Positions 5,129 to 37,372 of a stretch of DNA of 64,000 nucleotides are shown in pieces. The stretch's first letter is position 1; each line of letters begins with the position of its first letter. The translations under genes were made by a program, and so were the position numbers. Under the pieces are notes generated by a model that worked only from the letters and a program-made list of their open reading frames with translations, was not told the DNA's origin and did not search any database. The DNA is taken from assembly GCA_000002445.1 (NCBI GenBank), contig AE017150.2, positions 736,001 through 800,000 of the forward strand, written 5' to 3'. Source of the stretch: Trypanosoma brucei. Its lineage: Eukaryota.

Positions 5129-6706
5129 TTAAAGACGCGAAGCCTCAACATAGCGGGGAACGGCGCCCTTCATTTCCTCGGACGCCCTCGATGCAAAGCG
5201 GTCTTGGAAGCTCTTCTGGAACATGGTGACAAGTTCTTTCGTCGTCTCGTTGAACTGCTTCAGGTCCGTCCAAGCTTTGCGGGGGTTCAACAGGCTTGCG
5301 GGCACGTTCGCAACCCTCTTAGGAATGTGAAGGCCCCATCCGGGATACACTTCATAATCCGCCTGGTCAAGTGTACCGTCATGAATAGCATCAATGATGG
5401 CACGGGTGACGCGCAAAGGCATGCGCTTAGCCCCGCGGTCAGCACGGCCGCCTGCATAACCCGTGTTCAGCAGCCAAACGCGGCTATTGTGCTTTTCCAT
5501 CTTCTCAGCCAGTTGCTGGCCATAATGAGTGGCATGACGAACAAGGAATGGCCCACCGAAGCACGAGGAAAAAATGGGGCGAGCGACGCGAGCGCTTCCT
5601 GCTTCCACACCAGGGACGTTAGCCGTGTAGCCCATCACGAACCAGAACATAGCTTGAGCACTCGTTAGGCGTGCCACGGGAGGCATCACGCCAAAGGCAT
5701 CGTTCGTCAAGAAAATGATGTTCTTCGGGTGGCCCGCAACAGCCTTCGAAAGCGCACCGTCGATGTGCATGAGAGGGTAGGCAACGCGGGTGTTTTTGCA
5801 GATAGATTCATCATTAAAGTCAATTTCATGGGTTCTCCTGTCAAGAGTACAATTCTCGGCAACAGCGCCAAAGCGCACAGCCTCATAAATATCCTTCTCG
5901 GTTTCGGGGTTCAAACCAATCGCCTTAGCATAGCACCCGCCTTCAATGTTAAACACACCACGGTCCGTCCACACATGCTCGTCATCGCCAATGAGGTTGC
6001 GGCGCGGGTCCGCAGAGAGAGTCGTTTTGCCGGTTCCGCTGAGTCCAAAGAAGACCGTCACGTCACCGCTCTTACCCACGTTAGCGCTTGCATGCATGCA
6101 TAAGTGTCCCATGCGTGGCATCAATTCAAACATCACAGTCAGAATACCCTTCTTCATTTCACCAGCGTACTCTGTCCCAAGAATGACCTGTTCGCGGGTC
6201 TTAAAGTTCAGGGCCACTGACGTTGTTGAGGTAACACCGGGGACCGTCGGATCAGCCTTTGCCTCTCCGGCGTTGTAGATGACATAGTCCGGTTCACCAA
6301 AACTCTGCAGCTCCTCTAACGTAGGCACAATTAGCATGTTGCGCATGAAAAGTGCGTGGTAAGGGCGGGTCGTGTACACGCGCACCTTCAGGCGGTACCG
6401 TTCATCGTGGCCGGCAAAGCAGTCCATGACGAACAGGTGTTTGCAGGTGGCGAAGTAATCCTTTGCGATTGTCTTCAGTTTCTCAAATGATTCTTCGGTC
6501 AGCTTCATGTTTACGCTGCCCCAGTCCACATTGTCAGTAACGTCAGTGGTGTTTACAATACGCTTGTCGCGAGGAGAGCGGCCAGTCTTTGCGTATGAGC
6601 GTACGCTCAGGGCGCCACGAGCCGTCAGTTGGGAGTCCTTTTCAAGCTTAAGAGCCCACTCCACCAACTCGGGGGCGGTGAGATTCTTGTGAATTATAGG
6701 AGCCAT
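5129..6706 (-). CDS. PEPCK: Phosphoenolpyruvate carboxykinase [ATP], glycosomal (C-terminal PTS1 -SRL)
   Basis: Seen in sequence: the ATP-PEPCK kinase-1a P-loop GLSGTGKTTLS is present, with ATP-PEPCK-like similarity over the whole length. The C-terminal tripeptide SRL is a canonical PTS1 signal. The ORF track start at 6724 is a TTG codon. The first in-frame ATG (MAPIIHKNL) is at 6704-6706 and gives 525 aa, which matches the length I recall for T. brucei glycosomal PEPCK. Confidence 0.93.
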   Translation of the reverse strand: MAPIIHKNLTAPELVEWALKLEKDSQLTARGALSVRSYAKTGRSPRDKRIVNTTDVTDNVDWGSVNMKLTEESFEKLKTIAKDYFATCKHLFVMDCFAGHDERYRLKVRVYTTRPYHALFMRNMLIVPTLEELQSFGEPDYVIYNAGEAKADPTVPGVTSTTSVALNFKTREQVILGTEYAGEMKKGILTVMFELMPRMGHLCMHASANVGKSGDVTVFFGLSGTGKTTLSADPRRNLIGDDEHVWTDRGVFNIEGGCYAKAIGLNPETEKDIYEAVRFGAVAENCTLDRRTHEIDFNDESICKNTRVAYPLMHIDGALSKAVAGHPKNIIFLTNDAFGVMPPVARLTSAQAMFWFVMGYTANVPGVEAGSARVARPIFSSCFGGPFLVRHATHYGQQLAEKMEKHNSRVWLLNTGYAGGRADRGAKRMPLRVTRAIIDAIHDGTLDQADYEVYPGWGLHIPKRVANVPASLLNPRKAWTDLKQFNETTKELVTMFQKSFQDRFASRASEEMKGAVPRYVEASRL

Positions 6707-7767
6707 TGTGTTATGATTGGGCAATACACAACGAAATATATAAGTATAAGAACGTAAAATGTTAATTGTTGAAGACGGCTGTAGAGGCTATCTTTGAAAC
6801 TTTATCTCCTACTTATATGCTTACTGTTCTCTTTTGTTATTGTCTTGTTCGCTAGTAGATAATCTATGAACAGCAGTAAAAAATAAGGGAAACGGAAACG
6901 AGCAGTTTGAAACATATGGAACAGAGGAAAGTTGATAAAGGGGACACCACACACCACCACCGCGATACCGTACCATTGGGTTTCTATGACATGCTCAAAA
7001 CTCTCGAGCCACATAAAAAACATGTGCCTTACACCAAAACATCAAAATCTTGAAAGGGAGATGAGAACAAATGAGTAAGAACGATGTTAAGTTAATACAT
7101 ACACTCACCCAAACATTACCCTAATATAACATTACCACCGCAAAAACATGTAACACAGTTCAGAAACATGTTTTGAATATCAAGCCATACAACATTGGTG
7201 CCGCACCCTGCTTCGTTAGACAGACCCGCCATCACCCATATAAAATCAAACGAAGTATTACAAGAAGAACAAAGAGTATATGACTACCCACACGCATGCC
7301 TCTTTGATTTGGATTATGGATACGTTCCGCAAAATGAAACTCATCCCAAAAATATTTTTAAAAAGGCCGTATTCTACTGAAGAAATTGCTGCGCATTTCC
7401 CAGCGGTGCCTTCTGATCTTCTTCCACTTGTCTCCACCAGCTTCTATGAATTTATGCTAACCAATTACACATGTCATCCTTTCAAACTATAAACAGCAGG
7501 AAAAGACGAACAGACACTCATTGCCTTCATGCACTTGTTATCAGCGATCATAAACATACCGTTTCCTTCCTTTAACTCATTCGATCCTGCAGATTCTGTG
7601 AGTAAACAAATTTGAACGAAGTTGGCGCTCACGCTCACTCCACTTTTGGTCACCGTAAATGAAGTCAGGAGAATATTACCGGGAGGGATCATTTCTAGGT
7701 GCATGTGTAGATGAACTGCACACTTTATGCACTAATAACAGGTTTGAAGTACTTACCTGGCATCTCC

Positions 7768-10700
7768 TCACGAGACCGCATTGGCTGAACGAGACCTTTT
7801 CCTTGTGCTACGTATGTCCATGACTTGCCGTACCTGTCGCTGTGTTTGTTCAGTGATTCTGGAATGATGTGATGACTCAACGGACAAGCTCACCCTCTCT
7901 CTGGTGGTTCTTCCTGCACCTAGCACAGGTGACCCCCGAATTTGCTGTTCCGGTGGGCTGCTGTGTTGTGCCACTTCTGATGACACACGACCACCATAGG
8001 TTACAACCCTTGTCTTGGCATATCGAAGCTCGTCCTCCAGACCTTTCTTATCGCCCTGCAACTTCTGAACTGCGCTTTCAAGTTGTAAGGTCTTCCTTGA
8101 TGCATTCTCCGCATCTTGTGCCGCCTTGGCCGCATCTTGTTCATACTGGTCAAGTTGTTCGTCCTTCTGTACAAGCTCATCCTGCAGCCGTTGAACCTCC
8201 TCATCCTTTCGTTGTAGAGCTTTTTCAAGGAACGTAACGCGCGCCTGCGACATGCGAATACGCGCTTCATCCCCCTCCACAACGGCCTTTTGACGAGAGG
8301 AACCGCTTTGCCGTTTTGGGGAACCACTCGTCGATGCAACCTCCTCGCGGAGTGTTTGCACCTGAGCCTCCATCAGACTGAATGCTTTCGCCAGTTCCTC
8401 AGCTTGCTGCCTGGCCGCAAGTTCACCCTCACGTTTCGATGCCTCCAGTGCGGAGAGTTTATTGCGGCTCGCTTGCAACTGTGCGGAGAGCGAGTTGTTC
8501 TGCTGTTTCAACCGACTAACTTCCTCACCTCGCTCACGACCAAGTTCATCGACCCTCTCGGTGAGAGTACGACGCTCAGCTATGAGTTCTTCACGTTGCT
8601 GACGCATTTCCACCAACTGTTGACGAATTTCATCTAAATCTTCCAGATACGCATTTGACTGCGACGAATTCTGTTCCAATGACAAGAGAAGTTCCTCTTG
8701 ATTGGATTCCAACTGACGGCAAGTTTTTCGGCAGAGCATTAGATCTGCGTGAAGGCTTGATATTTGTAGAAACTGGGCGAGATCTACAGCCTCTAAGTCC
8801 ACCGGTTCCGCCCCCACAGAACTCACATCAACGGAACCATCCACACCTAATACACTGTGCGCGCCACGAACGTCCTTTGCCCGAACAAATTGTTCCAACC
8901 GCTGGCACTCCTTCTGCAATTTAACTACTTCCAGACATTTTCTTTCCAAATCTTGCTCTAGCCGAACATTGCGCTCCTCCAACCTCCTCCTCGCATCATT
9001 AGAGCGATCAACGGATCTTCTTGCGACAATAAGTTCCGTCACGCAACCCTCACTCCTACGGTCATAAAATTCTTCAAAACCACGCTTCGTAGCGGAAACT
9101 TGAGCATGAAGTTCATCCACAACCCGAGACAACCTCTCAACATCTGCACCAACAGCACCATCACTATCCCCCACTTTACCATTCAAAGAAGAAACACTAT
9201 CCACAAGCAAACGATTACTAACCAAAACTTCATCTTTTAAAAAAGATATTTCCTCAACACTCCTCTCCAGCTTCTCCTTTGCTGTACGGAGTTCCTCCTC
9301 AAGTGTAGAAACACGTTCCTCCATCTCAGTTGCCTTTTCTAAAGCAGCTTCCCGTTCCTCAGCAAGTCGCTCAAGTGCTACTAAAGCAGATGCCAATTGT
9401 GTACCAAGATCCGTATCAGCATTCCTTACAGCAACATCAGACACAAGAGCAGCTCGTGCATTGCCATCCTTGTCAGACTGTGAGGTGCGTACACGAACTC
9501 CAGCGGCATTCAACTTATTCGTTAGCTGTATGATCTCTTCTTCTGCTTCACGAAGACGTTGTTGCGTGTGTTGCAATTCTGTTGTGAAAGCTGCCACAGT
9601 TTGTTCAGGTGTTGTACCGTAACTCTCCAAACGGGAAACAGTTTCCTCAAGTTGCGTAAGTTTTGTCACATGTAGCTCACGTTCTGCAGACATTTTCTTC
9701 GTGGTTGAGTGCGCTGTACGGAGTTCCTCCTCAAGTGTAGAAACACGTTCCTCCATCTCAGTTGCCTTTTCTAAAGCAGCTTCCCGTTCCTCAGCAAGTC
9801 GCTCAAGTGCTACTAAAGCAGATGCCAATTGTGTACCAAGATCTGTATCAGCATTCCTTACAGCAACATCAGACACAAGAGCAGCTCGTGCATTGCCATC
9901 CTTGTCAGACTGTGAGGTGCGTACACGAACTCCAGCGGCATTCAACTTATTCGTTAGCTGTATGATCTCTTCCTCTGCTTCACGAAGACGTTGTTGCGTG
10001 TGTTGCAATTCTGTTGTGAAAGCTGCCACAGTTTGTTCAGGTGTTGTACCGTAACTCTCCAAACGGGAAACAGTTTCCTCAAGTTGCGTAAGTTTTGTCA
10101 CATGTAGCTCACGTTCTGCAGACATTTTCTTCGTGGTTGAGTGCGCTGTACGGAGTTCCTCCTCAAGTGTAGAAACACGTTCCTCCATCTCAGTTGCCTT
10201 TTCTAAAGCAGCTTCCCGTTCCTCAGCAAGTCGCTCAAGTGCTACTAAAGCAGATGCCAATTGTGTACCAAGATCCGTATCAGCATTCCTTACAGCAACA
10301 TCAGACACAAGAGCAGCTCGTGCATTGCCATCCTTGTCAGACTGTGAGGTGCGTACACGAACTCCAGCGGCATTCAACTTATTCGTTAGCTGTATGATCT
10401 CTTCTTCTGCTTCACGAAGACGTTGTTGCGTGTGTTGCAATTCTGTTGTGAAAGCTGCCACAGTTTGTTCAGGTGTTGTACCGTAACTCTCCAAACGGGA
10501 AACAGTTTCCTCAAGTTGCGTAAGTTTTGTCACATGTAGCTCACGTTCTGCAGACATTTTCTTCGTGGTTGAGTGCGCTGTACGGAGTTCCTCCTCAAGT
10601 GTAGAAACACGTTCCTCCATCTCAGTTGCCTTTTCTAAAGCAGCTTCCCGTTCCTCAGCAAGTCGCTCAAGTGCTACTAAAGCAGATGCCAATTGTGTAC

Positions 10701-13700
10701 CAAGATCCGTATCAGCATTCCTTACAGCAACATCAGACACAAGAGCAGCTCGTGCATTGCCATCCTTGTCAGACTGTGAGGTGCGTACACGAACTCCAGC
10801 GGCATTCAACTTATTCGTTAGCTGTATGATCTCTTCTTCTGCTTCACGAAGACGTTGTTGCGTGTGTTGCAATTCTGTTGTGAAAGCTGCCACAGTTTGT
10901 TCAGGTGTTGTACCGTAACTCTCCAAACGGGAAACAGTTTCCTCAAGTTGCGTAAGTTTTGTCACATGTAGCTCACGTTCTGCAGACATTTTCTTCGTGG
11001 TTGAGTGCGCTGTACGGAGTTCCTCCTCAAGTGTAGAAACACGTTCCTCCATCTCAGTTGCCTTTTCTAAAGCAGCTTCCCGTTCCTCAGCAAGTCGCTC
11101 AAGTGCTACTAAAGCAGATGCCAATTGTGTACCAAGATCTGTATCAGCATTCCTTACAGCAACATCAGACACAAGAGCAGCTCGTGCATTGCCATCCTTG
11201 TCAGACTGTGAGGTGCGTACACGAACTCCAGCGGCATTCAACTTATTCGTTAGCTGTATGATCTCTTCTTCTGCTTCACGAAGACGTTGTTGCGTGTGTT
11301 GCAATTCTGTTGTGAAAGCTGCCACAGTTTGTTCAGGTGTTGTACCGTAACTCTCCAAACGGGAAACAGTTTCCTCAAGTTGCGTAAGTTTTGTCACATG
11401 TAGCTCACGTTCTGCAGACATTTTCTTCGTGGTTGAGTGCGCTGTACGGAGTTCCTCCTCAAGTGTAGAAACACGTTCCTCCATCTCAGTTGCCTTTTCT
11501 AAAGCAGCTTCCCGTTCCTCAGCAAGTCGCTCAAGTGCTACTAAAGCAGATGCCAATTGTGTACCAAGATCCGTATCAGCATTCCTTACAGCAACATCAG
11601 ACACAAGAGCAGCTCGTGCATTGCCATCCTTGTCAGACTGTGAGGTGCGTACACGAACTCCAGCGGCATTCAACTTATTCGTTAGCTGTATGATCTCTTC
11701 CTCTGCTTCACGAAGACGTTGTTGCGTGTGTTGCAATTCTGTTGTGAAAGCTGCCACAGTTTGTTCAGGTGTTGTACCGTAACTCTCCAAACGGGAAACA
11801 GTTTCCTCAAGTTGCGTAAGTTTTGTCACATGTAGCTCACGTTCTGCAGACATTTTCTTCGTGGTTGAGTGCGCTGTACGGAGTTCCTCCTCAAGTGTAG
11901 AAACACGTTCCTCCATCTCAGTTGCCTTTTCTAAAGCAGCTTCCCGTTCCTCAGCAAGTCGCTCAAGTGCTACTAAAGCAGATGCCAATTGTGTACCAAG
12001 ATCTGTATCAGCATTCCTTACAGCAACATCAGACACAAGAGCAGCTCGTGCATTGCCATCCTTGTCAGACTGTGAGGTGCGTACACGAACTCCAGCGGCA
12101 TTCAACTTATTCGTTAGCTGTATGATCTCTTCCTCTGCTTCACGAAGACGTTGTTGCGTGTGTTGCAATTCTGTTGTGAAAGCTGCCACAGTTTGTTCAG
12201 GTGTTGTACCGTAACTCTCCAAACGGGAAACAGTTTCCTCAAGTTGCGTAAGTTTTGTCACATGTAGCTCACGTTCTGCAGACATTTTCTTCGTGGTTGA
12301 GTGCGCTGTACGGAGTTCCTCCTCAAGTGTAGAAACACGTTCCTCCATCTCAGTTGCCTTTTCTAAAGCAGCTTCCCGTTCCTCAGCAAGTCGCTCAAGT
12401 GCTACTAAAGCAGATGCCAATTGTGTACCAAGATCCGTATCAGCATTCCTTACAGCAACATCAGACACAAGAGCAGCTCGTGCATTGCCATCCTTGTCAG
12501 ACTGTGAGGTGCGTACACGAACTCCAGCGGCATTCAACTTATTCGTTAGCTGTATGATCTCTTCTTCTGCTTCACGAAGACGTTGTTGCGTGTGTTGCAA
12601 TTCTGTTGTGAAAGCTGCCACAGTTTGTTCAGGTGTTGTACCGTAACTCTCCAAACGGGAAACAGTTTCCTCAAGTTGCGTAAGTTTTGTCACATGTAGC
12701 TCACGTTCTGCAGACATTTTCTTCGTGGTTGAGTGCGCTGTACGGAGTTCCTCCTCAAGTGTAGAAACACGTTCCTCCATCTCAGTTGCCTTTTCTAAAG
12801 CAGCTTCCCGTTCCTCAGCAAGTCGCTCAAGTGCTACTAAAGCAGATGCCAATTGTGTACCAAGATCCGTATCAGCATTCCTTACAGCAACATCAGACAC
12901 AAGAGCAGCTCGTGCATTGCCATCCTTGTCAGACTGTGAGGTGCGTACACGAACTCCAGCGGCATTCAACTTATTCGTTAGCTGTATGATCTCTTCTTCT
13001 GCTTCACGAAGACGTTGTTGCGTGTGTTGCAATTCTGTTGTGAAAGCTGCCACAGTTTGTTCAGGTGTTGTACCGTAACTCTCCAAACGGGAAACAGTTT
13101 CCTCAAGTTGCGTAAGTTTTGTCACATGTAGCTCACGTTCTGCAGACATTTTCTTCGTGGTTGAGTGCGCTGTACGGAGTTCCTCCTCAAGTGTAGAAAC
13201 ACGTTCCTCCATCTCAGTTGCCTTTTCTAAAGCAGCTTCCCGTTCCTCAGCAAGTCGCTCAAGTGCTACTAAAGCAGATGCCAATTGTGTACCAAGATCT
13301 GTATCAGCATTCCTTACAGCAACATCAGACACAAGAGCAGCTCGTGCATTGCCATCCTTGTCAGACTGTGAGGTGCGTACACGAACTCCAGCGGCATTCA
13401 ACTTATTCGTTAGCTGTATGATCTCTTCCTCTGCTTCACGAAGACGTTGTTGCGTGTGTTGCAATTCTGTTGTGAAAGCTGCCACAGTTTGTTCAGGTGT
13501 TGTACCGTAACTCTCCAAACGGGAAACAGTTTCCTCAAGTTGCGTAAGTTTTGTCACATGTAGCTCACGTTCTGCAGACATTTTCTTCGTGGTTGAGTGC
13601 GCTGTACGGAGTTCCTCCTCAAGTGTAGAAACACGTTCCTCCATCTCAGTTGCCTTTTCTAAAGCAGCTTCCCGTTCCTCAGCAAGTCGCTCAAGTGCTA

Positions 13701-16700
13701 CTAAAGCAGATGCCAATTGTGTACCAAGATCCGTATCAGCATTCCTTACAGCAACATCAGACACAAGAGCAGCTCGTGCATTGCCATCCTTGTCAGACTG
13801 TGAGGTGCGTACACGAACTCCAGCGGCATTCAACTTATTCGTTAGCTGTATGATCTCTTCTTCTGCTTCACGAAGACGTTGTTGCGTGTGTTGCAATTCT
13901 GTTGTGAAAGCTGCCACAGTTTGTTCAGGTGTTGTACCGTAACTCTCCAAACGGGAAACAGTTTCCTCAAGTTGCGTAAGTTTTGTCACATGTAGCTCAC
14001 GTTCTGCAGACATTTTCTTCGTGGTTGAGTGCGCTGTACGGAGTTCCTCCTCAAGTGTAGAAACACGTTCCTCCATCTCAGTTGCCTTTTCTAAAGCAGC
14101 TTCCCGTTCCTCAGCAAGTCGCTCAAGTGCTACTAAAGCAGATGCCAATTGTGTACCAAGATCCGTATCAGCATTCCTTACAGCAACATCAGACACAAGA
14201 GCAGCTCGTGCATTGCCATCCTTGTCAGACTGTGAGGTGCGTACACGAACTCCAGCGGCATTCAACTTATTCGTTAGCTGTATGATCTCTTCCTCTGCTT
14301 CACGAAGACGTTGTTGCGTGTGTTGCAATTCTGTTGTGAAAGCTGCCACAGTTTGTTCAGGTGTTGTACCGTAACTCTCCAAACGGGAAACAGTTTCCTC
14401 AAGTTGCGTAAGTTTTGTCACATGTAGCTCACGTTCTGCAGACATTTTCTTCGTGGTTGAGTGCGCTGTACGGAGTTCCTCCTCAAGTGTAGAAACACGG
14501 TCCTCCATCTCAGTTGCCTTTTCTAAAGCAGCTTCCCGTTCCTCAGCAAGTCGCTCAAGTGCTACTAAAGCAGATGCCAATTGTGTACCAAGATCCGTAT
14601 CAGCATTCCTTACAGCAACATCAGACACAAGAGCAGCTCGTGCATTGCCATCCTTGTCAGACTGTGAGGTGCGTACACGAACTCCAGCGGCATTCAACTT
14701 ATTCGTTAGCTGTATGATCTCTTCCTCTGCTTCACGAAGACGTTGTTGCGTGTGTTGCAATTCTGTTGTGAAAGCTGCCACAGTTTGTTCAGGTGTTGTA
14801 CCGTAACTCTCCAAACGGGAAACAGTTTCCTTAAGTTGCGTAAGTTTTGTCACATGTAGCTCACGTTCTGCAGACATTTTCTTCGTGGTTGAGTGCGCTG
14901 TACGGAGTTCCTCCTCAAGTGTAGAAACACGTTCCTCCATCTCAGTTGCCTTTTCTAAAGCAGCTTCCCGTTCCTCAGCAAGTCGCTCAAGTGCTACTAA
15001 AGCAGATGCCAATTGTGTACCAAGATCCGTATCAGCATTCCTTACAGCAACATCAGACACAAGAGCAGCTCGTGCATTGCCATCCTTGTCAGACTGTGAG
15101 GTGCGTACACGAACTCCAGCGGCATTCAACTTATTCGTTAGCTGTATGATCTCTTCCTCTGCTTCACGAAGACGTTGTTGCGTGTGTTGCAATTCTGTTG
15201 TGAAAGCTGCCACAGTTTGTTCAGGTGTTGTACCGTAACTCTCCAAACGGGAAACAGTTTCCTCAAGTTGCGTAAGTTTTGTCACATGTAGCTCACGTTC
15301 TGCAGACATTTTCTTCGTGGTTGAGTGCGCTGTACGGAGTTCCTCCTCAAGTGTAGAAACACGTTCCTCCATCTCAGTTGCCTTTTCTAAAGCAGCTTCC
15401 CGTTCCTCAGCAAGTCGCTCAAGTGCTACTAAAGCAGATGCCAATTGTGTACCAAGATCCGTATCAGCATTCCTTACAGCAACATCAGACACAAGAGCAG
15501 CTCGTGCATTGCCATCCTTGTCAGACTGTGAGGTGCGTACACGAACTCCAGCGGCATTCAACTTATTCGTTAGCTGTATGATCTCTTGCTCTGCTTCACG
15601 AAGACGTTGTTGCGTGTGTTGCAATTCTGTTGTGAAAGCTGCCACAGTTTGTTCAGGTGTTGTACCGTAACTCTCCAAACGGGAAACAGTTTCCTCAAGT
15701 TGCGTAAGTTTTGTCACATGTAGCTCACGTTCTGCAGACATTTTCTTCGTGGTTGAGTGCGCTGTACGGAGTTCCTCCTCAAGTGTAGAAACACGTTCCT
15801 CCATCTCAGTTGCCTTTTCTAAAGCAGCTTCCCGTTCCTCAGCAAGTCGCTCAAGTGCTACTAAAGCAGATGCCAATTGTGTACCAAGATCCGTATCAGC
15901 ATTCCTTACAGCAACATCAGACACAAGAGCAGCTCGTGCATTGCCATCCTTGTCAGACTGTGAGGTGCGTACACGAACTCCAGCGGCATTCAACTTATTC
16001 GTTAGCTGTATGATCTCTTCCTCTGCTTCACGAAGACGTTGTTGCGTGTGTTGCAATTCTGTTGTGAAAGCTGCCACAGTTTGTTCAGGTGTTGTACCGT
16101 AACTCTCCAAACGGGAAACAGTTTCCTCAAGTTGCGTAAGTTTTGTCACATGTAGCTCACGTTCTGCAGACATTTTCTTCGTGGTTGAGTGCGCTGTACG
16201 GAGTTCCTCCTCAAGTGTAGAAACACGTTCCTCCATCTCAGTTGCCTTTTCTAAAGCAGCTTCCCGTTCCTCAGCAAGTCGCTCAAGTGCTACTAAAGCA
16301 GATGCCAATTGTGTACCAAGATCCGTATCAGCATTCCTTACAGCAACATCAGACACAAGAGCAGCTCGTGCATTGCCATCCTTGTCAGACTGTGAGGTGC
16401 GTACACGAACTCCAGCGGCATTCAACTTATTCGTTAGCTGTATGATCTCTTCCTCTGCTTCACGAAGACGTTGTTGCGTGTGTTGCAATTCTGTTGTGAA
16501 AGCTGCCACAGTTTGTTCAGGTGTTGTACCGTAACTCTCCAAACGGGAAACAGTTTCCTCAAGTTGCGTAAGTTTTGTCACATGTAGCTCACGTTCTGCA
16601 GACATTTTCTTCGTGGTTGAGTGCGCTGTACGGAGTTCCTCCTCAAGTGTAGAAACACGTTCCTCCATTTCAGTTGCTCTTGCTAGTGTAGCATCGTGCT

Positions 16701-18711
16701 GTTCTGCTAGCTGTGTTAGGGCTGCCAAGGCGGAGGATAACTGTGTTTTCAATCCGGCATTATATGTTCTCAGTGATCCTTCTGTATCATTTGGTGTTAA
16801 ACTTCCACTTCTTGTTGTACTTGTTGAGCGGCCCCGAGCTCCAGCCGCATTCAGCTTATTCGTTAGTTGCACGTTCTCTTCCCCTGCCTCGCGAAGGCAC
16901 TTCTGTGTGTGCTGCAGTTCCGTTTTCAGTGCTTCTATGACTTCTGTTAAACCTTCTTCTGTCATCTTGTGCTTGATTATGGCTTGTTCGTACTCGTCAT
17001 TTTGAGCTGACGACAATTCCTTGTTATTCCCTGTGGCATTGTGACCGCTATCGGCTTTTTGTGGTTGGTTTAGTTTCTCATGTTGCACATTTGCAGTAAT
17101 ATATTGCGAATCATTTCCTGACCTTGATGGCATCTGTGTCTCTCTTGTCACTAACTCTATTGATTCCTCTTTATTCCCGCCTTGTGGAATGTTCTTTTCA
17201 CCGCTTATGGAGCCTGATATTTGTATTTTTTCTCTGAGTTGATGATGAAAGTTGTTGATCACATAGCTATCTTCGGTGATCCTTTCTTGAGCAGTCTGCA
17301 GTTGGTTTTGTGTGTGGGAAAGGCTTTTCGTTAGTTCTGCAGCGTGTTCTCTCGATTTCTGAAGGGCGGCCTCTAGTTGCTGCTGAAGATTTTGGAGGTT
17401 AAATATTTCTTCGCTCGCTTTTTGGAGCAGGATGTCCTTCGCTTCTCCTTCCCTACGGAGCAAGAAGAACTGCTGTTGAAGTGTGTGCTGTTGTAGTTCC
17501 AGCATTCTGTACACTTCATCATCGTTGTTTGTATTTGTGTCTGTTTTGTTCTCGTCTGTTGTCTCCATTTGTGTGTCAGGTGCCCCACGTTGTACTGCTT
17601 GCTCAGTTTTGCGCTGTAGTAGTTGTGAAGTAAGATCCTCAATCGTCCTGTGCTGTTCGTCACACATTTCCTGCAATTGTTCCTTTTGCTCCTGCAGTGC
17701 GGTGTTTTGTTGGTGAAGGTTGTTTCGCGCTTGTATTGCTTCCCTAAGGCTTTCTTCGTAGTCTTCACGTTCTTTTCGAAGAAGCTGCTGTAGATCCGTT
17801 ATCTCTGTACGTGTCACCTGTAACAGGTACCTTGATTGCGCCAATTCCTCTTCATGACTCGTGTTTTCACTTTTCCCCATTTCTGCAGCGACAGCGTGGT
17901 GCCTAATACACTCACGTTCCCTTTCAAGCTCTTTAGTTAGCTCCAGAAGTTCTTCCTCAAGTTTTTTGTTCTTCTCTTCAAGCGCACTTATCTCTTGACG
18001 GCCAACATGTCGTTCACCTCCAGATGGGACATATTTGCCTTGTGAATTTACGGACACTAGCTTATCCCTAAGCTGTCGCACCTCCCCTTCCGATTCGTCA
18101 AGTTTTTGACGCAGTTCTTCGTTTTCTCGCTTGCAGCGGTATATTACGTCGTTGCATGCACTATGCTCGCGCAAAAGGCAATCAAAACGATGATTTTTGT
18201 CCTGCAACTCACGATGGAGGCGTGCAGCCTCATTTTTGTAGTCATCACGCAACTGATACGCACGGCTAAGGGTATTATGCACATGAGTCATATCTCCCTC
18301 CAAGCGATTTGTGTACTCCATGCGCTCCTCCTCTGACATGTCCGCCAAGCCCCGACGCCCAGCGAAGATGGTGGGGTGCATTCCCATAGGAGCAGTTTGT
18401 TTGGAGCTGAGAAGCGGCATTATGCTGGGTTCCTCACGTGACATGCCGACGAGTGCAGAATTAGTCAGCAACCCCGTAGGAGATGGTAAAGGATTGTTGA
18501 GACGAGGTATGGAATCCGTTGCGGCCAATCCTCGCACATTAATTGGTGCCGCCAGCCGCGGTGTGAGCAGCGGCGGTGTCTCATGTGTCAAACCTCCTTG
18601 GATGCTGCTGGCGCTTCGGTTGCTTCTCACATGCCCAATATTTTCGGGTGGTGGAGTCCACGTTCGTGTGAAGAAACCGGGGTACCGCCGTGCGTCCCCA
18701 GCAGAAAACAT
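7768..18711 (-). CDS. NUP-1: Giant coiled-coil nucleoskeletal (lamin-like) protein NUP-1, with a central array of about 18 repeats of 144 aa
   Basis: Seen in sequence: a 3647-aa ORF with a verified ATG at 18709-18711 and an in-frame TAA immediately upstream. The N-terminal and C-terminal regions are unique, heptad-rich and E/K/L/Q-rich. The centre consists of near-perfect 144-aa repeats (...KATEMEERVSTLEEELRTAHSTTKKMSAERELHVTKLTQLEETVSRLESYGTTPEQTVAAFTTELQHTQQRLREAEEEIIQLTNKLNAAGVRVRTSQSDKDGNARAALVSDVAVRNADTDLGTQLASALVALERLAEEREAALE...). Established knowledge, from memory: T. brucei NUP-1 is a protein of about 400 kDa built from roughly 20 repeats of 144 aa, encoded just downstream of PEPCK on chromosome 2. 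Confidence 0.85.
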   Translation of the reverse strand: MFSAGDARRYPGFFTRTWTPPPENIGHVRSNRSASSIQGGLTHETPPLLTPRLAAPINVRGLAATDSIPRLNNPLPSPTGLLTNSALVGMSREEPSIMPLLSSKQTAPMGMHPTIFAGRRGLADMSEEERMEYTNRLEGDMTHVHNTLSRAYQLRDDYKNEAARLHRELQDKNHRFDCLLREHSACNDVIYRCKRENEELRQKLDESEGEVRQLRDKLVSVNSQGKYVPSGGERHVGRQEISALEEKNKKLEEELLELTKELERERECIRHHAVAAEMGKSENTSHEEELAQSRYLLQVTRTEITDLQQLLRKEREDYEESLREAIQARNNLHQQNTALQEQKEQLQEMCDEQHRTIEDLTSQLLQRKTEQAVQRGAPDTQMETTDENKTDTNTNNDDEVYRMLELQQHTLQQQFFLLRREGEAKDILLQKASEEIFNLQNLQQQLEAALQKSREHAAELTKSLSHTQNQLQTAQERITEDSYVINNFHHQLREKIQISGSISGEKNIPQGGNKEESIELVTRETQMPSRSGNDSQYITANVQHEKLNQPQKADSGHNATGNNKELSSAQNDEYEQAIIKHKMTEEGLTEVIEALKTELQHTQKCLREAGEENVQLTNKLNAAGARGRSTSTTRSGSLTPNDTEGSLRTYNAGLKTQLSSALAALTQLAEQHDATLARATEMEERVSTLEEELRTAHSTTKKMSAERELHVTKLTQLEETVSRLESYGTTPEQTVAAFTTELQHTQQRLREAEEEIIQLTNKLNAAGVRVRTSQSDKDGNARAALVSDVAVRNADTDLGTQLASALVALERLAEEREAALEKATEMEERVSTLEEELRTAHSTTKKMSAERELHVTKLTQLEETVSRLESYGTTPEQTVAAFTTELQHTQQRLREAEEEIIQLTNKLNAAGVRVRTSQSDKDGNARAALVSDVAVRNADTDLGTQLASALVALERLAEEREAALEKATEMEERVSTLEEELRTAHSTTKKMSAERELHVTKLTQLEETVSRLESYGTTPEQTVAAFTTELQHTQQRLREAEQEIIQLTNKLNAAGVRVRTSQSDKDGNARAALVSDVAVRNADTDLGTQLASALVALERLAEEREAALEKATEMEERVSTLEEELRTAHSTTKKMSAERELHVTKLTQLEETVSRLESYGTTPEQTVAAFTTELQHTQQRLREAEEEIIQLTNKLNAAGVRVRTSQSDKDGNARAALVSDVAVRNADTDLGTQLASALVALERLAEEREAALEKATEMEERVSTLEEELRTAHSTTKKMSAERELHVTKLTQLKETVSRLESYGTTPEQTVAAFTTELQHTQQRLREAEEEIIQLTNKLNAAGVRVRTSQSDKDGNARAALVSDVAVRNADTDLGTQLASALVALERLAEEREAALEKATEMEDRVSTLEEELRTAHSTTKKMSAERELHVTKLTQLEETVSRLESYGTTPEQTVAAFTTELQHTQQRLREAEEEIIQLTNKLNAAGVRVRTSQSDKDGNARAALVSDVAVRNADTDLGTQLASALVALERLAEEREAALEKATEMEERVSTLEEELRTAHSTTKKMSAERELHVTKLTQLEETVSRLESYGTTPEQTVAAFTTELQHTQQRLREAEEEIIQLTNKLNAAGVRVRTSQSDKDGNARAALVSDVAVRNADTDLGTQLASALVALERLAEEREAALEKATEMEERVSTLEEELRTAHSTTKKMSAERELHVTKLTQLEETVSRLESYGTTPEQTVAAFTTELQHTQQRLREAEEEIIQLTNKLNAAGVRVRTSQSDKDGNARAALVSDVAVRNADTDLGTQLASALVALERLAEEREAALEKATEMEERVSTLEEELRTAHSTTKKMSAERELHVTKLTQLEETVSRLESYGTTPEQTVAAFTTELQHTQQRLREAEEEIIQLTNKLNAAGVRVRTSQSDKDGNARAALVSDVAVRNADTDLGTQLASALVALERLAEEREAALEKATEMEERVSTLEEELRTAHSTTKKMSAERELHVTKLTQLEETVSRLESYGTTPEQTVAAFTTELQHTQQRLREAEEEIIQLTNKLNAAGVRVRTSQSDKDGNARAALVSDVAVRNADTDLGTQLASALVALERLAEEREAALEKATEMEERVSTLEEELRTAHSTTKKMSAERELHVTKLTQLEETVSRLESYGTTPEQTVAAFTTELQHTQQRLREAEEEIIQLTNKLNAAGVRVRTSQSDKDGNARAALVSDVAVRNADTDLGTQLASALVALERLAEEREAALEKATEMEERVSTLEEELRTAHSTTKKMSAERELHVTKLTQLEETVSRLESYGTTPEQTVAAFTTELQHTQQRLREAEEEIIQLTNKLNAAGVRVRTSQSDKDGNARAALVSDVAVRNADTDLGTQLASALVALERLAEEREAALEKATEMEERVSTLEEELRTAHSTTKKMSAERELHVTKLTQLEETVSRLESYGTTPEQTVAAFTTELQHTQQRLREAEEEIIQLTNKLNAAGVRVRTSQSDKDGNARAALVSDVAVRNADTDLGTQLASALVALERLAEEREAALEKATEMEERVSTLEEELRTAHSTTKKMSAERELHVTKLTQLEETVSRLESYGTTPEQTVAAFTTELQHTQQRLREAEEEIIQLTNKLNAAGVRVRTSQSDKDGNARAALVSDVAVRNADTDLGTQLASALVALERLAEEREAALEKATEMEERVSTLEEELRTAHSTTKKMSAERELHVTKLTQLEETVSRLESYGTTPEQTVAAFTTELQHTQQRLREAEEEIIQLTNKLNAAGVRVRTSQSDKDGNARAALVSDVAVRNADTDLGTQLASALVALERLAEEREAALEKATEMEERVSTLEEELRTAHSTTKKMSAERELHVTKLTQLEETVSRLESYGTTPEQTVAAFTTELQHTQQRLREAEEEIIQLTNKLNAAGVRVRTSQSDKDGNARAALVSDVAVRNADTDLGTQLASALVALERLAEEREAALEKATEMEERVSTLEEELRTAHSTTKKMSAERELHVTKLTQLEETVSRLESYGTTPEQTVAAFTTELQHTQQRLREAEEEIIQLTNKLNAAGVRVRTSQSDKDGNARAALVSDVAVRNADTDLGTQLASALVALERLAEEREAALEKATEMEERVSTLEEELRTAKEKLERSVEEISFLKDEVLVSNRLLVDSVSSLNGKVGDSDGAVGADVERLSRVVDELHAQVSATKRGFEEFYDRRSEGCVTELIVARRSVDRSNDARRRLEERNVRLEQDLERKCLEVVKLQKECQRLEQFVRAKDVRGAHSVLGVDGSVDVSSVGAEPVDLEAVDLAQFLQISSLHADLMLCRKTCRQLESNQEELLLSLEQNSSQSNAYLEDLDEIRQQLVEMRQQREELIAERRTLTERVDELGRERGEEVSRLKQQNNSLSAQLQASRNKLSALEASKREGELAARQQAEELAKAFSLMEAQVQTLREEVASTSGSPKRQSGSSRQKAVVEGDEARIRMSQARVTFLEKALQRKDEEVQRLQDELVQKDEQLDQYEQDAAKAAQDAENASRKTLQLESAVQKLQGDKKGLEDELRYAKTRVVTYGGRVSSEVAQHSSPPEQQIRGSPVLGAGRTTRERVSLSVESSHHSRITEQTQRQVRQVMDIRSTRKRSRSANAVS
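9277..16680. repeat. Tandem array of a 432-bp unit (144 codons) in about 17.1 near-identical copies; this is the coding repeat of the NUP-1 gene
   Basis: Seen in sequence: the anchor 'gctgtacggagttcctcctcaagtgtagaaacacgttcctccatctcagttgcc' recurs at 9281, 9713, 10145 and so on to 16625, at exact 432-bp spacing. Copies differ at only a few positions: C/T at 9411/9843-type sites, T/C in ttcttctgc versus ttcctctgc, and singletons at 14499, 14831 and 15587. The period is a multiple of 3, so the frame is maintained. Confidence 0.95.
16681..17020. repeat. Diverged terminal copy of the 432-bp unit, corresponding to the first and most degenerate protein repeat
   Basis: Seen in sequence: nucleotide identity to the array falls off after about 16680. 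The encoded peptide (…ATEMEERVSTLEEELRTAHS… preceded by LTEVIEALKTELQHTQKCLREAGEENVQLTNKLNAAGARGRS…) is still recognisably homologous to the repeat unit. Confidence 0.6.
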
Positions 18712-21010: not shown

Positions 21011-23289
21011 AAATCACACAAACACCACGCACCTGATACGATTCTAGTTGTTGTTGCTTTTTTTTTTGAGTGATAATTCGATATGAGGAACTAAAGAGAG
21101 AAATATCAATGAAGTTTTAAATGGGATGTTTGTAGTTTCCGGTAATATGTGGTCCCTCTCTCACCCTTTTCCCCCGCTGTATGTATGTATGTATGTACGT
21201 GTTTGTGTTTGTCTACATGATTGTGAGAACATTCATTTGAGCATTAACGAACAATGAGAAATGGGGGTAAGGAGAGAATGATAACAACACAAGGGCAGTG
21301 AAATGGCAACACATCTTAAGACGATGTGCATGTGTGTGGTCCAATACCGATGAGGGATTTATATATATATTTTTTTACCGAATACAAAAATATAAACGGA
21401 GGCATATGCATGTGATGAGGTGTACGTATTCCCATATACACCTTATCACATGAAATGGGCAGCTTGTGTGAGCGTGTGAATAGCGGTAATAACTCACTTT
21501 AAGGGAAGTAGAGATGAAGGCAAGAGAAGGCGAAAAATCTGAATTCAACAGACACACGCCTGCATACAGTTAAGCTTGGCACATACATACACACATCGAA
21601 AGTATGACATATGTTTATGTATATATAAATATATATATTTATATTGGCCCCCTATGTATTGAAAACGCACTTCGCACACACACAAACAAACAAAACTCAA
21701 AAAAAAAACAGAAAAAGAAGCATCCGACGCCATAATTGGATAAATACGAAGAAGAAGAAGAAGAAAAAGGAAAACAACATATTCACACACCATTTACATC
21801 ATTTGCATCCCCTTCGTGCTCCGCATCCTCCTTTACGAGCAACACAAAAAAGGAGAGCAAAATATAAAAAAAAATGACCATCGCAATTTCTCTTCCCTTG
21901 TCTTATAATAATAATAATAAAGACTAATTAACTTTTCTCCATCATTCATTTTCTCACGTAACCGTACGAAACAAATCACAAAACCGAAACAACACAATTT
22001 TCCACACGTGGATCGAAAGATCCTTGCGGCCAACGAATACAGAACAACAAAAGTAACAACGCAACCAAAAGACGCTTAAAATAAATAATAATAATAATAA
22101 ATATTTTTGTTTACTTTTTATTTTATTTTTTTTTCGAAGAGAAAGCAAGGAGGAAGTGATAGGGAGAGGGGAGAAGGGAAAGAAAAAAAAACAAACAAAA
22201 CAAACAAACAAACAAACACCTTCTATGGGGTAGGGAAATTTACTAATTACATTATAATAATTTACAATTATAACACGGAATTAATGAAGAAACTTTTGGT
22301 TTTATTAAATACGTTTTTTTTCTTTTTTGCCTTGTTTCCTTCTGTATCCTTTTTTTTCTTTTCTTTTCGTCTTTGTTTTTATCTCTTTCTCTTTCTTTTT
22401 TTTTCCTTTTCTTTATTTGCAGAAGCTGACAATGTTGAGGTGAGGCAGTGTCAAAAAAGAGATGGTTAAAAACAAAAAGAAAAATAAACAAGAAAGGCTT
22501 ACATATTTATAATTTTGCTCCACCATTGGGCTTTCTCCAACCAACAAACAGGGGGGGAAAACAAATGTACATACATCATAAATGCGTATACATTTAGATA
22601 TAAATATAAATATATATATTTATGTTAGTGTGGATGTGGATGTGGGCATGTGTGTATATATGTATATAAATACTTTGTAAATTGAATGGAAAAAAAATTA
22701 GTGGACCAGCGACAAGGTAATAATAGTAATAATAATAATAATAATAATAAACAAAAAAGAAAAAGTGACAACAGTTTGGCAAACGTACAGTCGCGAAGAG
22801 TTTCTCTTACTTCATTTTTGCATATTTTTTTTTATAAAAAAAAAGAGAAGAAAAGAAAAGAAAGAAAAAAAAGACAAAGCAGTAAATGATAGTCGCCGGT
22901 AATAAAAGAGAAAGTTAAGGGTTTGGTGGACATAAAAAAAAAAAGTAAGAAAAAGAGAACTTAAAAATCAACAATAACAACAATAGGACAATTGCCTCAA
23001 ATACAAACAAGAATCACAAAAAAAAAAAGAAGAAGGGAGGATCAGGTAAGGTGGTAAGGAAAACAAATGGGAGGGAAAAGATATATAAAAAAGAAAAAAC
23101 TAAAGACACAAATAAAAACAAAAAAGTAATTAAAAAGTGGAAAAACTGTTTAGATTTTTGCCTACATATAAAAAGAATAGAAAAAGGAAAGCAGAAAGGT
23201 AAAATAATTCACAAAATGGTTTCAACATTACCGTGTGGCTGCTCAAAAAACAGAATAGTCAAACGCTGCTACCCCTTAGGGGTGGTAAA

Positions 23290-23311
23290 TTATATATATA
23301 TATATATATAA
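23290..23311. repeat. (TA)11 microsatellite in the long 2.9 kb inter-CDS spacer
   Basis: Seen in sequence: similar shorter (TA)n or (ATA)n runs occur at about 18911-18926, 22718-22750, 33200-33217, 51487-51507, 55124-55141, 4029-4066 and 45692-45716. Confidence 0.85.
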
Positions 23312-23932
23312 TGGGGGACTGCATATTTCATCCATTCCTTCTTCTTTAAAACAAAGTCAGAAAAAAAAAAAGAAGATTCATTTGTATCGGGCTGACAACT
23401 TTTCTTTCTTTTTTGTTTCTTCCTCTTCAGAAATTATTGGTGTTGCATCCCTTCTTCTCATGCCTTCTTTTCCCTATTTTTTCCCCTTGTGATTTGCACT
23501 TTTTCCCTTTTTTTTTCTTGATTGGTTGCCAGCAGCTTAGAAGGGGAAGAACATGGTACAAAAGTGTTTAGTTTTTTGTTCATTCGTTCAATAACATAAA
23601 TTTAAATACCGCAAAAAAAAAAACTTCTCTGTGTCTCGAACGGCGTAACGCCGTCTCCTCTTTTTTTTTTAAATTTTTTTCCTTTCATTTCACGCTCCCT
23701 CATTTATTATTATTAATTTTTTTTTTGATTCATCTCCGTCTTTCCGTAAACATTTGAATCGCCCTTCTCCCACGAATACGGAAGTGCCTTTGCTAATTGC
23801 AGCAGCAGCAGCATTTGGAGTGACCTTAAGGTCGACCAGCATATCAACAGAAATAATTTATCAATCAACCAGATACAAAACACAAACAAACACAAACAAA
23901 CACATATATATGTACAAACAAATATGATGGTT

Positions 23933-36890: not shown

Positions 36891-37372
36891 TTGTTTCAAT
36901 TGCTTTTCCTGGTATTTCCTTCAGGGACTTTCAAATAGAATTCCTTTTGGCCTTTTCGTTCGGACTTTTGTGTGGGTATTTTTCTGAAGTGACAGCGAAA
37001 GAACACACACAAAAAAAAAAAGACAGCGTAACATGTATGCATATGTTTCTGCGCACACATAGCAAAATATGAAGATGCACCGGTTGTATATTAAAACAAT
37101 TATACGTTAATCCGCTGTTGCACCACAAAATAACACATACGCAGAAAACTCAGCCACTCTAACAAGAACGCACGCAAAATTAGAGGTAAACAAAATAAAA
37201 ATACTCCAACTGCAGTGTTTCATGCCCGACGATAAAAGAAACAACAACCACACAAATTCAAATGACGCCATGCATAGCAAAAAAAAAAATAATAATAATA
37301 AACAATCACACTCCCTTTCTCCTGAGTCAGTAATAACAAGGGCGGCCGCACCATCAACGGGACGCAACAACA

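What the first reader, a model, noticed from the sequence alone, without database searches (positions are those of the whole stretch)
9277..17020. About 17 near-identical 432-bp coding repeats (NUP-1) carrying a mosaic of shared, mostly synonymous variants
Seen in sequence: 17 tandem units are more than 99% identical. Two biallelic sites recur across copies but do not co-vary, which gives a mosaic arrangement. The first is ccg versus ctg at 9411/9843-type positions. The second is ttcttctgc versus ttcctctgc at 9541/9973-type positions. Both are synonymous in the minus-strand frame (Thr ACG/ACA and Glu GAA/GAG). The only protein-changing differences are singletons in individual copies: E to K near 14831, E to Q near 15587, E to D in one copy, and one near 14499. 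This pattern is what repeated unequal crossover or gene conversion would produce while purifying selection holds the 144-aa coiled-coil unit constant. Arrays with this level of identity are also commonly collapsed or expanded in assemblies, so the copy number seen here (about 17 plus one degenerate copy) may not be the true number or may differ between alleles.
Basis: partly seen in the sequence, partly recalled or inferred. Interest (0 to 1): 0.55.

Follow-up and report, generated by a model that had tools for sequence, protein, structure and literature searches.

The report
NUP-1 lamina gene repeat array
This is the published repeat core of the Trypanosoma brucei nuclear-lamina gene NUP-1: 17 near-identical 432-bp coding units kept alike by recombination within the array, with a copy number and variant order that current assemblies do not settle.

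Summary
Window 9281-16677 holds 17.1 tandem 432-bp units (mean pairwise identity 99.71%) inside a 3647-aa minus-strand ORF. That ORF is identical to NUP-1 of T. b. brucei TREU927 (XP_951625.1, Tb927.2.4230).

- **Variants:** two synonymous biallelic sites recur, in 4/17 and 7/17 units. There are three non-synonymous singletons, not four.
- **Degenerate copy:** one lies at 16678-17022.
- **Already published:** DuBois et al. 2012 reported 17 repeats of 144 aa, three conservative substitutions, and repeats that are near-identical within species but divergent between species.
- **Added here:** three differences are fixed across the whole array between T. brucei subspecies. Edge units escape homogenisation. 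Both shared variants are derived and confined to the 3' 11 units. A partly long-read T. equiperdum IVM-t1 assembly has 26 units, while DAL972, OVI, T. theileri and T. conorhini are gapped or broken in the array.

This fits concerted evolution by unequal exchange or gene conversion. Purifying selection on the unit is not demonstrated, because non-synonymous variants have spread in other arrays. Exact internal duplicates of up to 1727 bp exceed my estimate of Sanger read length, so the variant order in TREU927 cannot be trusted unverified. Verdict: real, ordinary and already known; low interest.

The parts
7768..18711 (-). Complete NUP-1 ORF (3647 aa, 406.9 kDa, pI 5.07), Tb927.2.4230
   Evidence: ORF list. 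Exact look-up gives XP_951625.1 / Q586V1, 'NUP-1 protein, putative [T. b. brucei TREU927]', on a 1,193,948-bp contig. Mass and pI are and match DuBois 2012.
9281..16677 (-). Array of 17 full units plus 53 bp of a 432-bp (144-aa) coding repeat; NUP-1 aa 679-3143
   Evidence: TRF; per-unit differences; identity statistics.
9281..14032 (-). The eleven 3'-proximal units (R7-R17 in gene order), which carry both shared synonymous variants in interspersed order
   Evidence: Confinement to this block has permutation P of about 0.005.
14033..16624 (-). The six 5'-proximal units (R1-R6) with no shared variants. They carry only the three non-synonymous singletons (14500, 14832, 15588). The extra synonymous edge difference at 16669 lies just outside this range, in the 53-bp part-unit 16625-16677.
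16678..17022 (-). Degenerate repeat copy immediately 5' of the array (NUP-1 aa 564-678)
   Evidence: blastp of the consensus unit against the N-terminal domain: 39% identity over 116 aa, E = 4e-21; 49% over the best 86 aa.
17023..18711 (-). Unique N-terminal domain (aa 1-563)
   Evidence: No Pfam family. 35-40% identical to the N-termini of T. cruzi, T. conorhini and T. theileri NUP-1.
7768..9280 (-). Unique C-terminal domain (aa 3144-3647) plus stop codon
   Evidence: translation. 98% identical to the T. b. equiperdum C-terminal fragment.
11702..13428 (.). Longest exact internal duplicate (1727 bp); the second copy is at 9542-11268, five units away
   Evidence: It exceeds my estimate of Sanger read length, so the order of units here is not fixed by single reads.

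Best explanation
The region is the central repeat domain of NUP-1, the roughly 407-kDa, largely alpha-helical protein of the trypanosome nuclear lamina. It is read from T. b. brucei TREU927 chromosome 2.

The 432-bp units stay nearly identical at the DNA level, synonymous sites included, because homologous recombination is frequent within the array. The candidate processes are unequal sister-chromatid or allelic exchange, gene conversion, and slippage or single-strand-annealing repair. This is concerted evolution.

New mutations arise in single units. The three non-synonymous singletons are at this stage. Mutations are then either lost or copied to other units. The two synonymous variants are derived alleles caught part-way, at 4/17 and 7/17 units, and only in the 3' eleven units. 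Some eventually fill the array, as shown by the array-wide differences between subspecies. The same process changes copy number.

Shown: the identity of the gene, the pattern of variants, the between-array fixed differences, the edge effect, and the failure of most assemblies at this locus.
Inferred: the recombination mechanism itself, and that 17 and 26 are true copy numbers.
For: 1. Exact identity to NUP-1 XP_951625.1. The published description is 17 near-perfect 144-aa repeats with three conservative substitutions (PMC3313915).
2. Only 2 of about 107 synonymous sites in the unit vary among internal units. Mean unit identity is 99.71%.
3. All 26 IVM-t1 units and all 3 DAL972 units carry G93 and G154, where every TREU927 unit has A. 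They also carry A9, where TREU927 has G in R2-R17. DAL972 units additionally share A294 and A316. Each array is therefore uniform for its own state.
4. Edge effect. TREU927 R1 alone keeps A9, the state of the other arrays. The flanking copy is only 39% identical. The first T. cruzi unit is 4-6% from the internal ones.
5. Both TREU927 shared variants are G in every IVM-t1 and DAL972 unit, so they are derived in the TREU927 lineage. A225 is also present in T. equiperdum OVI, which is close to TREU927 in the flanks.
6. Unit length and sequence differ between species: 432, 441 and 450 bp, 39-40% aa identity, and no blastn match. Within those arrays TRF gives 97-98% matches.
7. The array consensus differs between TREU927 and IVM-t1 at 3/432 positions (0.7%). 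The unique flanks differ by 0.8-1.3%. The array therefore diverges at about the flank rate, but as a block.
8. Copy number is 17 in TREU927 and 26 in IVM-t1.
Against: - No recombination event is observed directly.
- The four-haplotype argument depends on one unit and could reflect recurrent mutation.
- The order of variants in TREU927 may owe something to assembly. I recall from general knowledge that this chromosome was assembled from BAC clones by Sanger sequencing; I could not retrieve the chromosome II paper. Exact duplicates reach 1727 bp.
- The IVM-t1 array comes from roughly 2x PacBio coverage by my estimate (7,508 reads of mean 8.5 kb) and was polished with multi-mapping short reads. 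It still carries 6 one-base deletions. Its count of 26 and the placement of its site-184 alleles are therefore soft.
- DAL972 contributes only 3 units.
- A five-unit higher-order period in R7-R17 is not significant (P = 0.18-0.34), so multi-unit duplication is neither shown nor excluded.
Confidence: 0.85

Rival explanations
1. Purifying selection on the protein, rather than recombination, keeps the units identical, and the mosaic of synonymous variants is simply tolerated neutral variation.
For: In TREU927 the two variants that have spread are synonymous and the three non-synonymous ones are singletons. NUP-1 is reported as essential (PMC8255026).
Against: - Selection on protein cannot hold about 105 of 107 synonymous sites identical across 17 units.
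- Non-synonymous changes have spread or become fixed in other arrays: T52A, T62A, E76K, D98E and A106T.
- Units are only 39-40% identical between species.
- The pooled test of spread against singleton variants gives P of about 0.18 (my hand calculation from the counts). For TREU927 alone, two out of two spread variants being synonymous has probability 0.247 squared, about 0.06, under neutrality.
- The unique N-terminal domain has pN/pS of about 0.85.
Confidence: 0.1
2. The interspersed order of the two variants, and possibly the copy number of 17, is an artefact of assembling a 7.4-kb near-perfect repeat from short Sanger reads. The variants are real but their placement is not.
For: - Exact internal duplicates of 1727, 1556 and 1295 bp exceed my estimate of Sanger read length, so unit order in R7-R17 depends on mate pairs or finishing.
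- Four other assemblies are gapped or broken within the array: DAL972, OVI, T. theileri and T. conorhini. IVM-t1 spans it with uncorrected frameshifts.
- R12 and R13 differ from a perfect 5-unit period only by a swap of their site-225 alleles.
- DuBois 2012 Table S1 already notes that NUP-1 ORFs are split by assembly in several species.
Against: - From general knowledge, TREU927 chromosome 2 was finished clone by clone. I could not retrieve the paper to confirm this.
- The ORF is intact with no frameshift over 10.9 kb.
- The predicted 406.9 kDa and pI 5.07 agree with the published description of a protein above 400 kDa.
- Singletons give unique anchors in R1-R6.
- Allele A225 is independently present in OVI.
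Confidence: 0.35
3. The fourth haplotype (the unit carrying both derived alleles) arose by recurrent mutation rather than by exchange between the two sites.
For: Only one unit (11009-11440) carries both derived alleles. Both changes are transitions, and site A is in a CpG context (ACG>ACA).
Against: Each derived allele already sits in 4 or 7 non-adjacent units. That requires copying between units, so exchange is the simpler source of the double-derived unit. From general knowledge, cytosine methylation is at most very low in T. brucei, so a CpG hotspot is not expected.
Confidence: 0.1

Closest known systems
NUP-1 of Trypanosoma brucei (Tb927.2.4230; Rout & Field 2001 from memory; DuBois et al. 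2012, PMC3313915; Padilla-Mejia et al. 2021, PMC8255026)
   Same: It is the same gene. The protein is identical to XP_951625.1. It has 17 near-perfect 144-aa repeats with three conservative substitutions, pI 5.07 and a mass above 400 kDa.
   Different: Nothing differs at the protein level. The papers read here do not describe the synonymous-variant pattern, the array-wide differences between subspecies, or a 26-unit array in another strain.
Concerted evolution of tandem repeats by unequal crossing-over and gene conversion (the classical rDNA and satellite model of Smith and of Dover; textbook knowledge)
   Same: Within-array identity far exceeds between-lineage identity. There are array-wide fixed differences, divergent edge units, partly spread variants and changing copy number.
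   Different: Here the repeat is an in-frame 432-bp coding unit of an essential structural protein. Only whole-unit changes keep the frame, and copy number sets protein length at about 16 kDa per unit. By my arithmetic at 1.5 A per residue that is about 22 nm of helix per unit.
NUP-1 orthologues in T. cruzi, T. conorhini and T. theileri
   Same: Gene order is shared: dual-specificity phosphatase, YchF-like GTPase, NUP-1, PEPCK, kinase. The architecture is shared too: a unique N-terminus, a homogeneous repeat array and a C-terminus.
   Different: Unit lengths are 450 bp (T. cruzi, 12.9 copies) and 441 bp (T. conorhini, at least 3 copies around gaps), against 432 bp here. Unit proteins are 39-40% identical to the T. 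brucei unit, with no detectable DNA similarity.
Metazoan lamins (functional analogue)
   Same: According to the literature both are alpha-helical rod proteins of the nuclear periphery needed for nuclear shape, pore spacing and silencing of peripheral chromatin.
   Different: No lamin or intermediate-filament Pfam family is hit; only sub-threshold generic coiled-coil matches appear. NUP-1 is about 7 times larger and is built from long identical repeats.

Membership tests
NUP-1 (trypanosomatid lamina protein) | Sequence identity to the characterised T. brucei protein | tested here: met
   Exact full-length match to XP_951625.1 / Q586V1.
NUP-1 (trypanosomatid lamina protein) | Architecture: a unique N-terminal domain, a central array of near-perfect repeats of about 144-150 aa that are largely helical, and a unique C-terminal domain | tested here: met
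   The AlphaFold2 model of two units (mean pLDDT 78.7) is mostly helix by DSSP, with a 16-aa non-helical loop per unit that is largely low-confidence. The coiled-coil oligomeric state was not tested.
NUP-1 (trypanosomatid lamina protein) | Conserved synteny with orthologues | tested here: met
   DSPc, YchF-like GTPase, NUP-1, PEPCK and kinase lie in the same order in the window and in the T. b. equiperdum, T. b. gambiense, T. theileri, T. conorhini and T. cruzi loci.
NUP-1 (trypanosomatid lamina protein) | Localisation at the nuclear periphery and lamin-like function | not testable with these tools
   Taken from the literature only (PMC3313915, PMC8255026).
Concerted evolution of a tandem array | Units more alike within an array than between lineages, synonymous sites included | tested here: met
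   99.71% within TREU927. 39-40% aa identity and no DNA match to T. cruzi or T. conorhini units.
Concerted evolution of a tandem array | Differences between lineages that are fixed across all units of each array | tested here: met
   Unit positions 93 and 154 differ in 26/26 IVM-t1 units and 3/3 DAL972 units against 0/17 TREU927 units. Position 9 differs in all IVM-t1 units and both complete DAL972 units, and matches only TREU927 R1. Caveat: IVM-t1 was short-read polished.
Concerted evolution of a tandem array | Edge units escape homogenisation | tested here: met
   TREU927 R1 retains A9. There is a degenerate flanking copy. The first T. cruzi unit is the outlier.
Concerted evolution of a tandem array | Copy number varies between strains | tested here: inconclusive
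   17 units in TREU927 against 26 in IVM-t1. The IVM-t1 count rests on roughly 2x PacBio coverage (my estimate), and all other assemblies are collapsed or broken.
Concerted evolution of a tandem array | Direct evidence of unequal exchange or conversion events | not testable with these tools
   This needs single-molecule reads, pedigrees or clonal lines. Here there is only the four-haplotype pattern, which rests on one unit.
Purifying selection on the repeat unit | Deficit of non-synonymous change among variants that have spread (dN/dS well below 1) | tested here: inconclusive
   Spread variants are 4 synonymous and 5 non-synonymous over 106.7 and 325.3 sites, giving omega of about 0.4. Singletons are 0 and 4. 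P is about 0.18. Counts are; omega and P are my hand calculations.

The most novel reading that the evidence does not exclude
NUP-1 repeat number is truly polymorphic within the T. brucei group: 17 units (407 kDa, about 367 nm of helix) in TREU927 against about 26 units (about 550 kDa, about 560 nm) in T. equiperdum IVM-t1. If so, the length of the lamina 'spoke' in the hub-and-spoke model varies by about 50% between strains. That would offer a natural series for testing how rod length sets lamina mesh size, nuclear size or positioning of telomeric VSG expression sites.
Probability: 0.45. Interest if true: 0.4.

Novelty: already known. Interest (0 to 1): 0.2.

Why it matters
There are three practical consequences.

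1. **Annotation.** NUP-1 gene models are split or truncated in T. b. gambiense, both T. equiperdum assemblies, T. theileri, T. conorhini and T. cruzi. Comparative or proteomic work that relies on them is affected.
2. **Protein length.** Because the unit is in frame, any change in copy number changes the length of an essential lamina rod by about 16 kDa per unit, or about 22 nm by my arithmetic. The 17 versus 26 contrast deserves a proper long-read check.
3. **A teaching example.** The locus is a compact case of concerted evolution in a coding repeat, resolved at the timescale of subspecies.

None of this changes what is known about NUP-1 function.

Tried and rejected
- **Full-length protein search.** Searching the 3647-aa protein against the protein database timed out. 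It was replaced by domain queries. The single-unit query returned only one cluster. I therefore found no Lister 427, T. evansi or other full-length NUP-1, and no second long-read array of T. brucei.
- **Higher-order periodicity.** R7-R17 look like a 5-unit block repeated. Permutation of alleles or of whole units gives P = 0.18-0.34, so this is rejected as unsupported.
- **Linkage between the two biallelic sites.** No association across 17 units (P = 0.60). There is a weak trend towards repulsion within R7-R17 (P = 0.088).
- **Pfam on the three domains.** No family passes its cut-off; only generic coiled-coil noise appears.
- **The T. brucei chromosome II sequencing paper.** I tried to read it to learn how the array was finished. 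It is not held in the library.
- **Literature on NUP-1 copy-number variation between strains.** Nothing found.
- **Naive fixed-period cutting of the T. cruzi array.** It failed because of indels. It was replaced by blastn of the first unit.
- **The bacterial, phage and plasmid collections and the RNA tools.** Not used, because they do not apply to a trypanosome coding repeat.
Full report
**What is there**

Tandem Repeats Finder reports a single array at window 9281-16677, with period 432, 17.1 copies, 99% matches and no indels. It is the only large tandem repeat in the 64-kb window. It lies inside one ORF of 3647 aa on the minus strand, 7768..18711.

Cutting the array every 432 bp from 9281 gives 17 units that differ from their consensus at 0-2 positions. 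Mean pairwise identity is 99.71% and the lowest is 99.07%. Only six distinct unit sequences exist.

**The variants**

- Site A (9412 + 432k; C/T on the plus strand) has T in plus-strand copies 2, 5, 7 and 10. It changes ACG to ACA, so Thr is kept.
- Site B (9541 + 432k) has T in copies 1, 3, 4, 5, 8, 9 and 11. It changes GAG to GAA, so Glu is kept.
- The protein-changing differences are 14832 (E>K), 15588 (E>Q) and 14500 (E>D).
- One further synonymous difference, at 16669, sits in the unit at the 5' edge of the array.
- All four combinations of the two shared sites occur (6, 3, 7 and 1 units) without association (Fisher P = 0.60). The double-derived type is a single unit.
- The arrangement is not a uniform mosaic. 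In gene order the first six units carry no shared variant, and the last eleven carry them interspersed: AG, GA, AG, AG, GA, GG, AA, AG, AG, GA, AG at unit positions 225 and 354. A variant-free terminal block this long arises in about 0.5% of permutations.
- An apparent five-unit period in the last eleven units is not significant (P = 0.18-0.34).

**The degenerate copy**

Immediately 5' of the array in gene orientation, NUP-1 aa 564-678 (window 16678-17022) matches the unit at 39% identity over 116 aa, E = 4e-21.

**What it is**

The ORF product is letter-for-letter XP_951625.1 / Q586V1, 'NUP-1 protein, putative', of T. b. brucei TREU927. It lies on a 1,193,948-bp contig, and the neighbouring GTP-binding protein also matches exactly. 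The accession Tb927.2.4230 is given in Table S1 of DuBois et al..

The calculated mass of 406.9 kDa and pI of 5.07 equal the published values. DuBois et al. 2012 (PMC3313915) describe:
[quoted passage not shown] Their Table S1 notes that the ORF is split by assembly in several genomes. The core of the finding is therefore already in the literature.

A single-sequence AlphaFold2 model of two units (mean pLDDT 78.7) is mostly helical by DSSP. Each unit has a 16-residue non-helical loop that is largely low-confidence, plus two short breaks. Pfam gives only sub-threshold coiled-coil matches.

**Evidence from other assemblies**

| Assembly | State of the NUP-1 array |
|---|---|
| T. b. gambiense DAL972 | 100-N gap inside NUP-1; only 3.0 units |
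| T. equiperdum OVI | two contigs that stop in the array, 499 bp in from the 5' side and 32 bp from the 3' side |
| T. theileri, T. conorhini | N gaps inside the gene |
| T. equiperdum IVM-t1 | continuous array of 26.1 units with six one-base deletions; the gene call is split into six ORFs |

The IVM-t1 assembly used 7,508 PacBio reads of mean 8.5 kb. By my estimate that is roughly 2x coverage. It also used MiSeq reads and Pilon polishing. The count of 26 is therefore suggestive, not secure.

**Concerted evolution**

- Relative to the TREU927 consensus, all 26 IVM-t1 units and all 3 DAL972 units carry A93G (synonymous) and A154G (T52A). No TREU927 unit does.
- All IVM-t1 units and both complete DAL972 units also carry G9A. 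In TREU927 only the edge unit R1 has A9.
- DAL972 units share two further changes, D98E and A106T.
- IVM-t1 has its own partly spread variant, T62A, in 16/26 units, and E76K in two units.
- Both TREU927 shared variants are G in every IVM-t1 and DAL972 unit, so the A alleles are derived in the TREU927 lineage.
- A225 is also seen in OVI. OVI's flanks are only 0.07-0.34% from TREU927, against 0.8-1.3% for IVM-t1. That argues against sequencing error.
- The array consensus differs between TREU927 and IVM-t1 at 3/432 positions (0.7%), similar to the unique flanks.
- Across species the unit is 441 bp in T. conorhini and 450 bp in T. cruzi (12.9 copies). TRF gives 97-98% matches within those arrays. 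The unit proteins are only 39-40% identical to the T. brucei unit, and no DNA similarity is detectable.
- Edge units are the outliers in both T. brucei and T. cruzi.

Together these are the standard signatures of homogenisation by unequal exchange or gene conversion. The mechanism itself remains an inference.

**Selection**

The claim that purifying selection holds the unit constant is not established.
- Identity at about 105 of 107 synonymous sites cannot be due to protein-level selection.
- Pooling the arrays, variants present in two or more units are 4 synonymous and 5 non-synonymous. With 106.7 and 325.3 sites, omega is about 0.4. Singletons are 0 synonymous and 4 non-synonymous. The contrast is not significant, with hypergeometric P of about 0.18. 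Omega and P are my hand calculations from the counts.
- Between TREU927 and IVM-t1, the unique N-terminal domain shows 12 non-synonymous and 4 synonymous differences.
- Mild constraint is possible but not shown.

**Reliability of the TREU927 array**

The array contains exact internal duplicates of 1727 bp (11702-13428 against 9542-11268), 1556 bp and 1295 bp. These are longer than a Sanger read, which from general knowledge is under about 1 kb. The order of the R7-R17 units, and in principle their number, must therefore have depended on mate pairs or finishing. I could not obtain the chromosome II paper to check how this was done.

The intact 10.9-kb reading frame and the agreement with the reported size above 400 kDa argue against gross error. 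The fine order of the two alleles should still be treated as unverified.

**Context**

All substantial ORFs in the window are on the minus strand, as expected for one trypanosome polycistronic unit. They include a protein kinase, PEPCK, NUP-1, a YchF-like GTPase, a dual-specificity phosphatase, a paraflagellar-rod/SH3 protein, a glutathionylspermidine/trypanothione-synthetase-like protein, MRE11 and a MIZ-finger protein. The order phosphatase, GTPase, NUP-1, PEPCK, kinase is conserved in T. theileri, T. conorhini and T. cruzi.

**Verdict**

The additions are modest:
- the nucleotide-level pattern is a block plus a mosaic;
- the shared variants are derived;
- array-wide differences between subspecies show concerted evolution on a short timescale;
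- a possible 17 versus 26 copy-number difference needs long-read confirmation.

Noticed in passing
L002 11431-11637 (T. b. gambiense DAL972, FN554965.1): 207 bp lie between the 100-N gap and the first NUP-1 repeat. They have no blastn match to the TREU927 window or to the equiperdum loci. This is probably a misplaced read in the scaffold.
   Followed up: partly
L004/L005 (T. equiperdum OVI) versus L001/L003 (T. equiperdum IVM-t1): At this locus OVI is 0.07-0.34% from TREU927 and shares TREU927-type units (A93, A154, A225). IVM-t1 is 0.8-1.3% away and shares its unit type with T. b. gambiense. The two 'equiperdum' genomes are different lineages here.
   Followed up: partly
window 16678-18711 (NUP-1 N-terminal domain): There are 12 non-synonymous and 4 synonymous differences between TREU927 and IVM-t1 (pN/pS about 0.85). 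The C-terminal domain has 9 and 10 (about 0.27). Numbers are small, but the N-terminal domain, which the literature reports as the NUP-2 binding site, looks weakly constrained.
   Followed up: no
window 7768-9280 and 17250-18100 (NUP-1 unique domains): The repeat unit has weak similarity to stretches of the N-terminal domain (aa 206-486) and the C-terminal domain (E from 2e-5 to 6e-3, with composition correction off). These could be older decayed repeats or just coiled-coil composition.
   Followed up: no
window 15814-16677 (two units): In the AlphaFold2 single-sequence model each 144-aa unit is not one unbroken helix. It has a 16-residue non-helical, largely low-confidence loop (unit aa 88-103, around AGVRVRTSQSDKDGNA) and short breaks near aa 49-52 and 115-118.
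   Followed up: no
L008 6647-12445 (T. cruzi, GCA_015033625.1) and L007 12463-13790 (T. conorhini): The orthologous arrays use units of 450 bp (12.9 copies) and 441 bp (at least 3 copies, interrupted by N gaps). In T. cruzi the first unit is the most divergent.
   Followed up: partly
window 22001-24000: A low-GC stretch (GC 0.31 against about 0.46 elsewhere) lies in the intergenic region between the GTPase and phosphatase genes. The equivalent region of the related loci holds T-rich, (TTA)n and (AT)n low-complexity runs.
   Followed up: no
window 1-64000: Every substantial gene-like ORF is on the minus strand, consistent with one polycistronic unit. They include PEPCK (5129-6724), a trypanothione-synthetase-like gene (35007-36899) and MRE11 (39166-41457).
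   Followed up: partly
L003 493-11769 (IVM-t1 array): The non-synonymous T62A variant (unit position 184) shows its own interspersed pattern across the 26 units: AGAGGGAAAGGGGGGGAAGGAGGAAG. This parallels the TREU927 mosaic but at a different site. Its placement may be affected by short-read polishing.
   Followed up: partly
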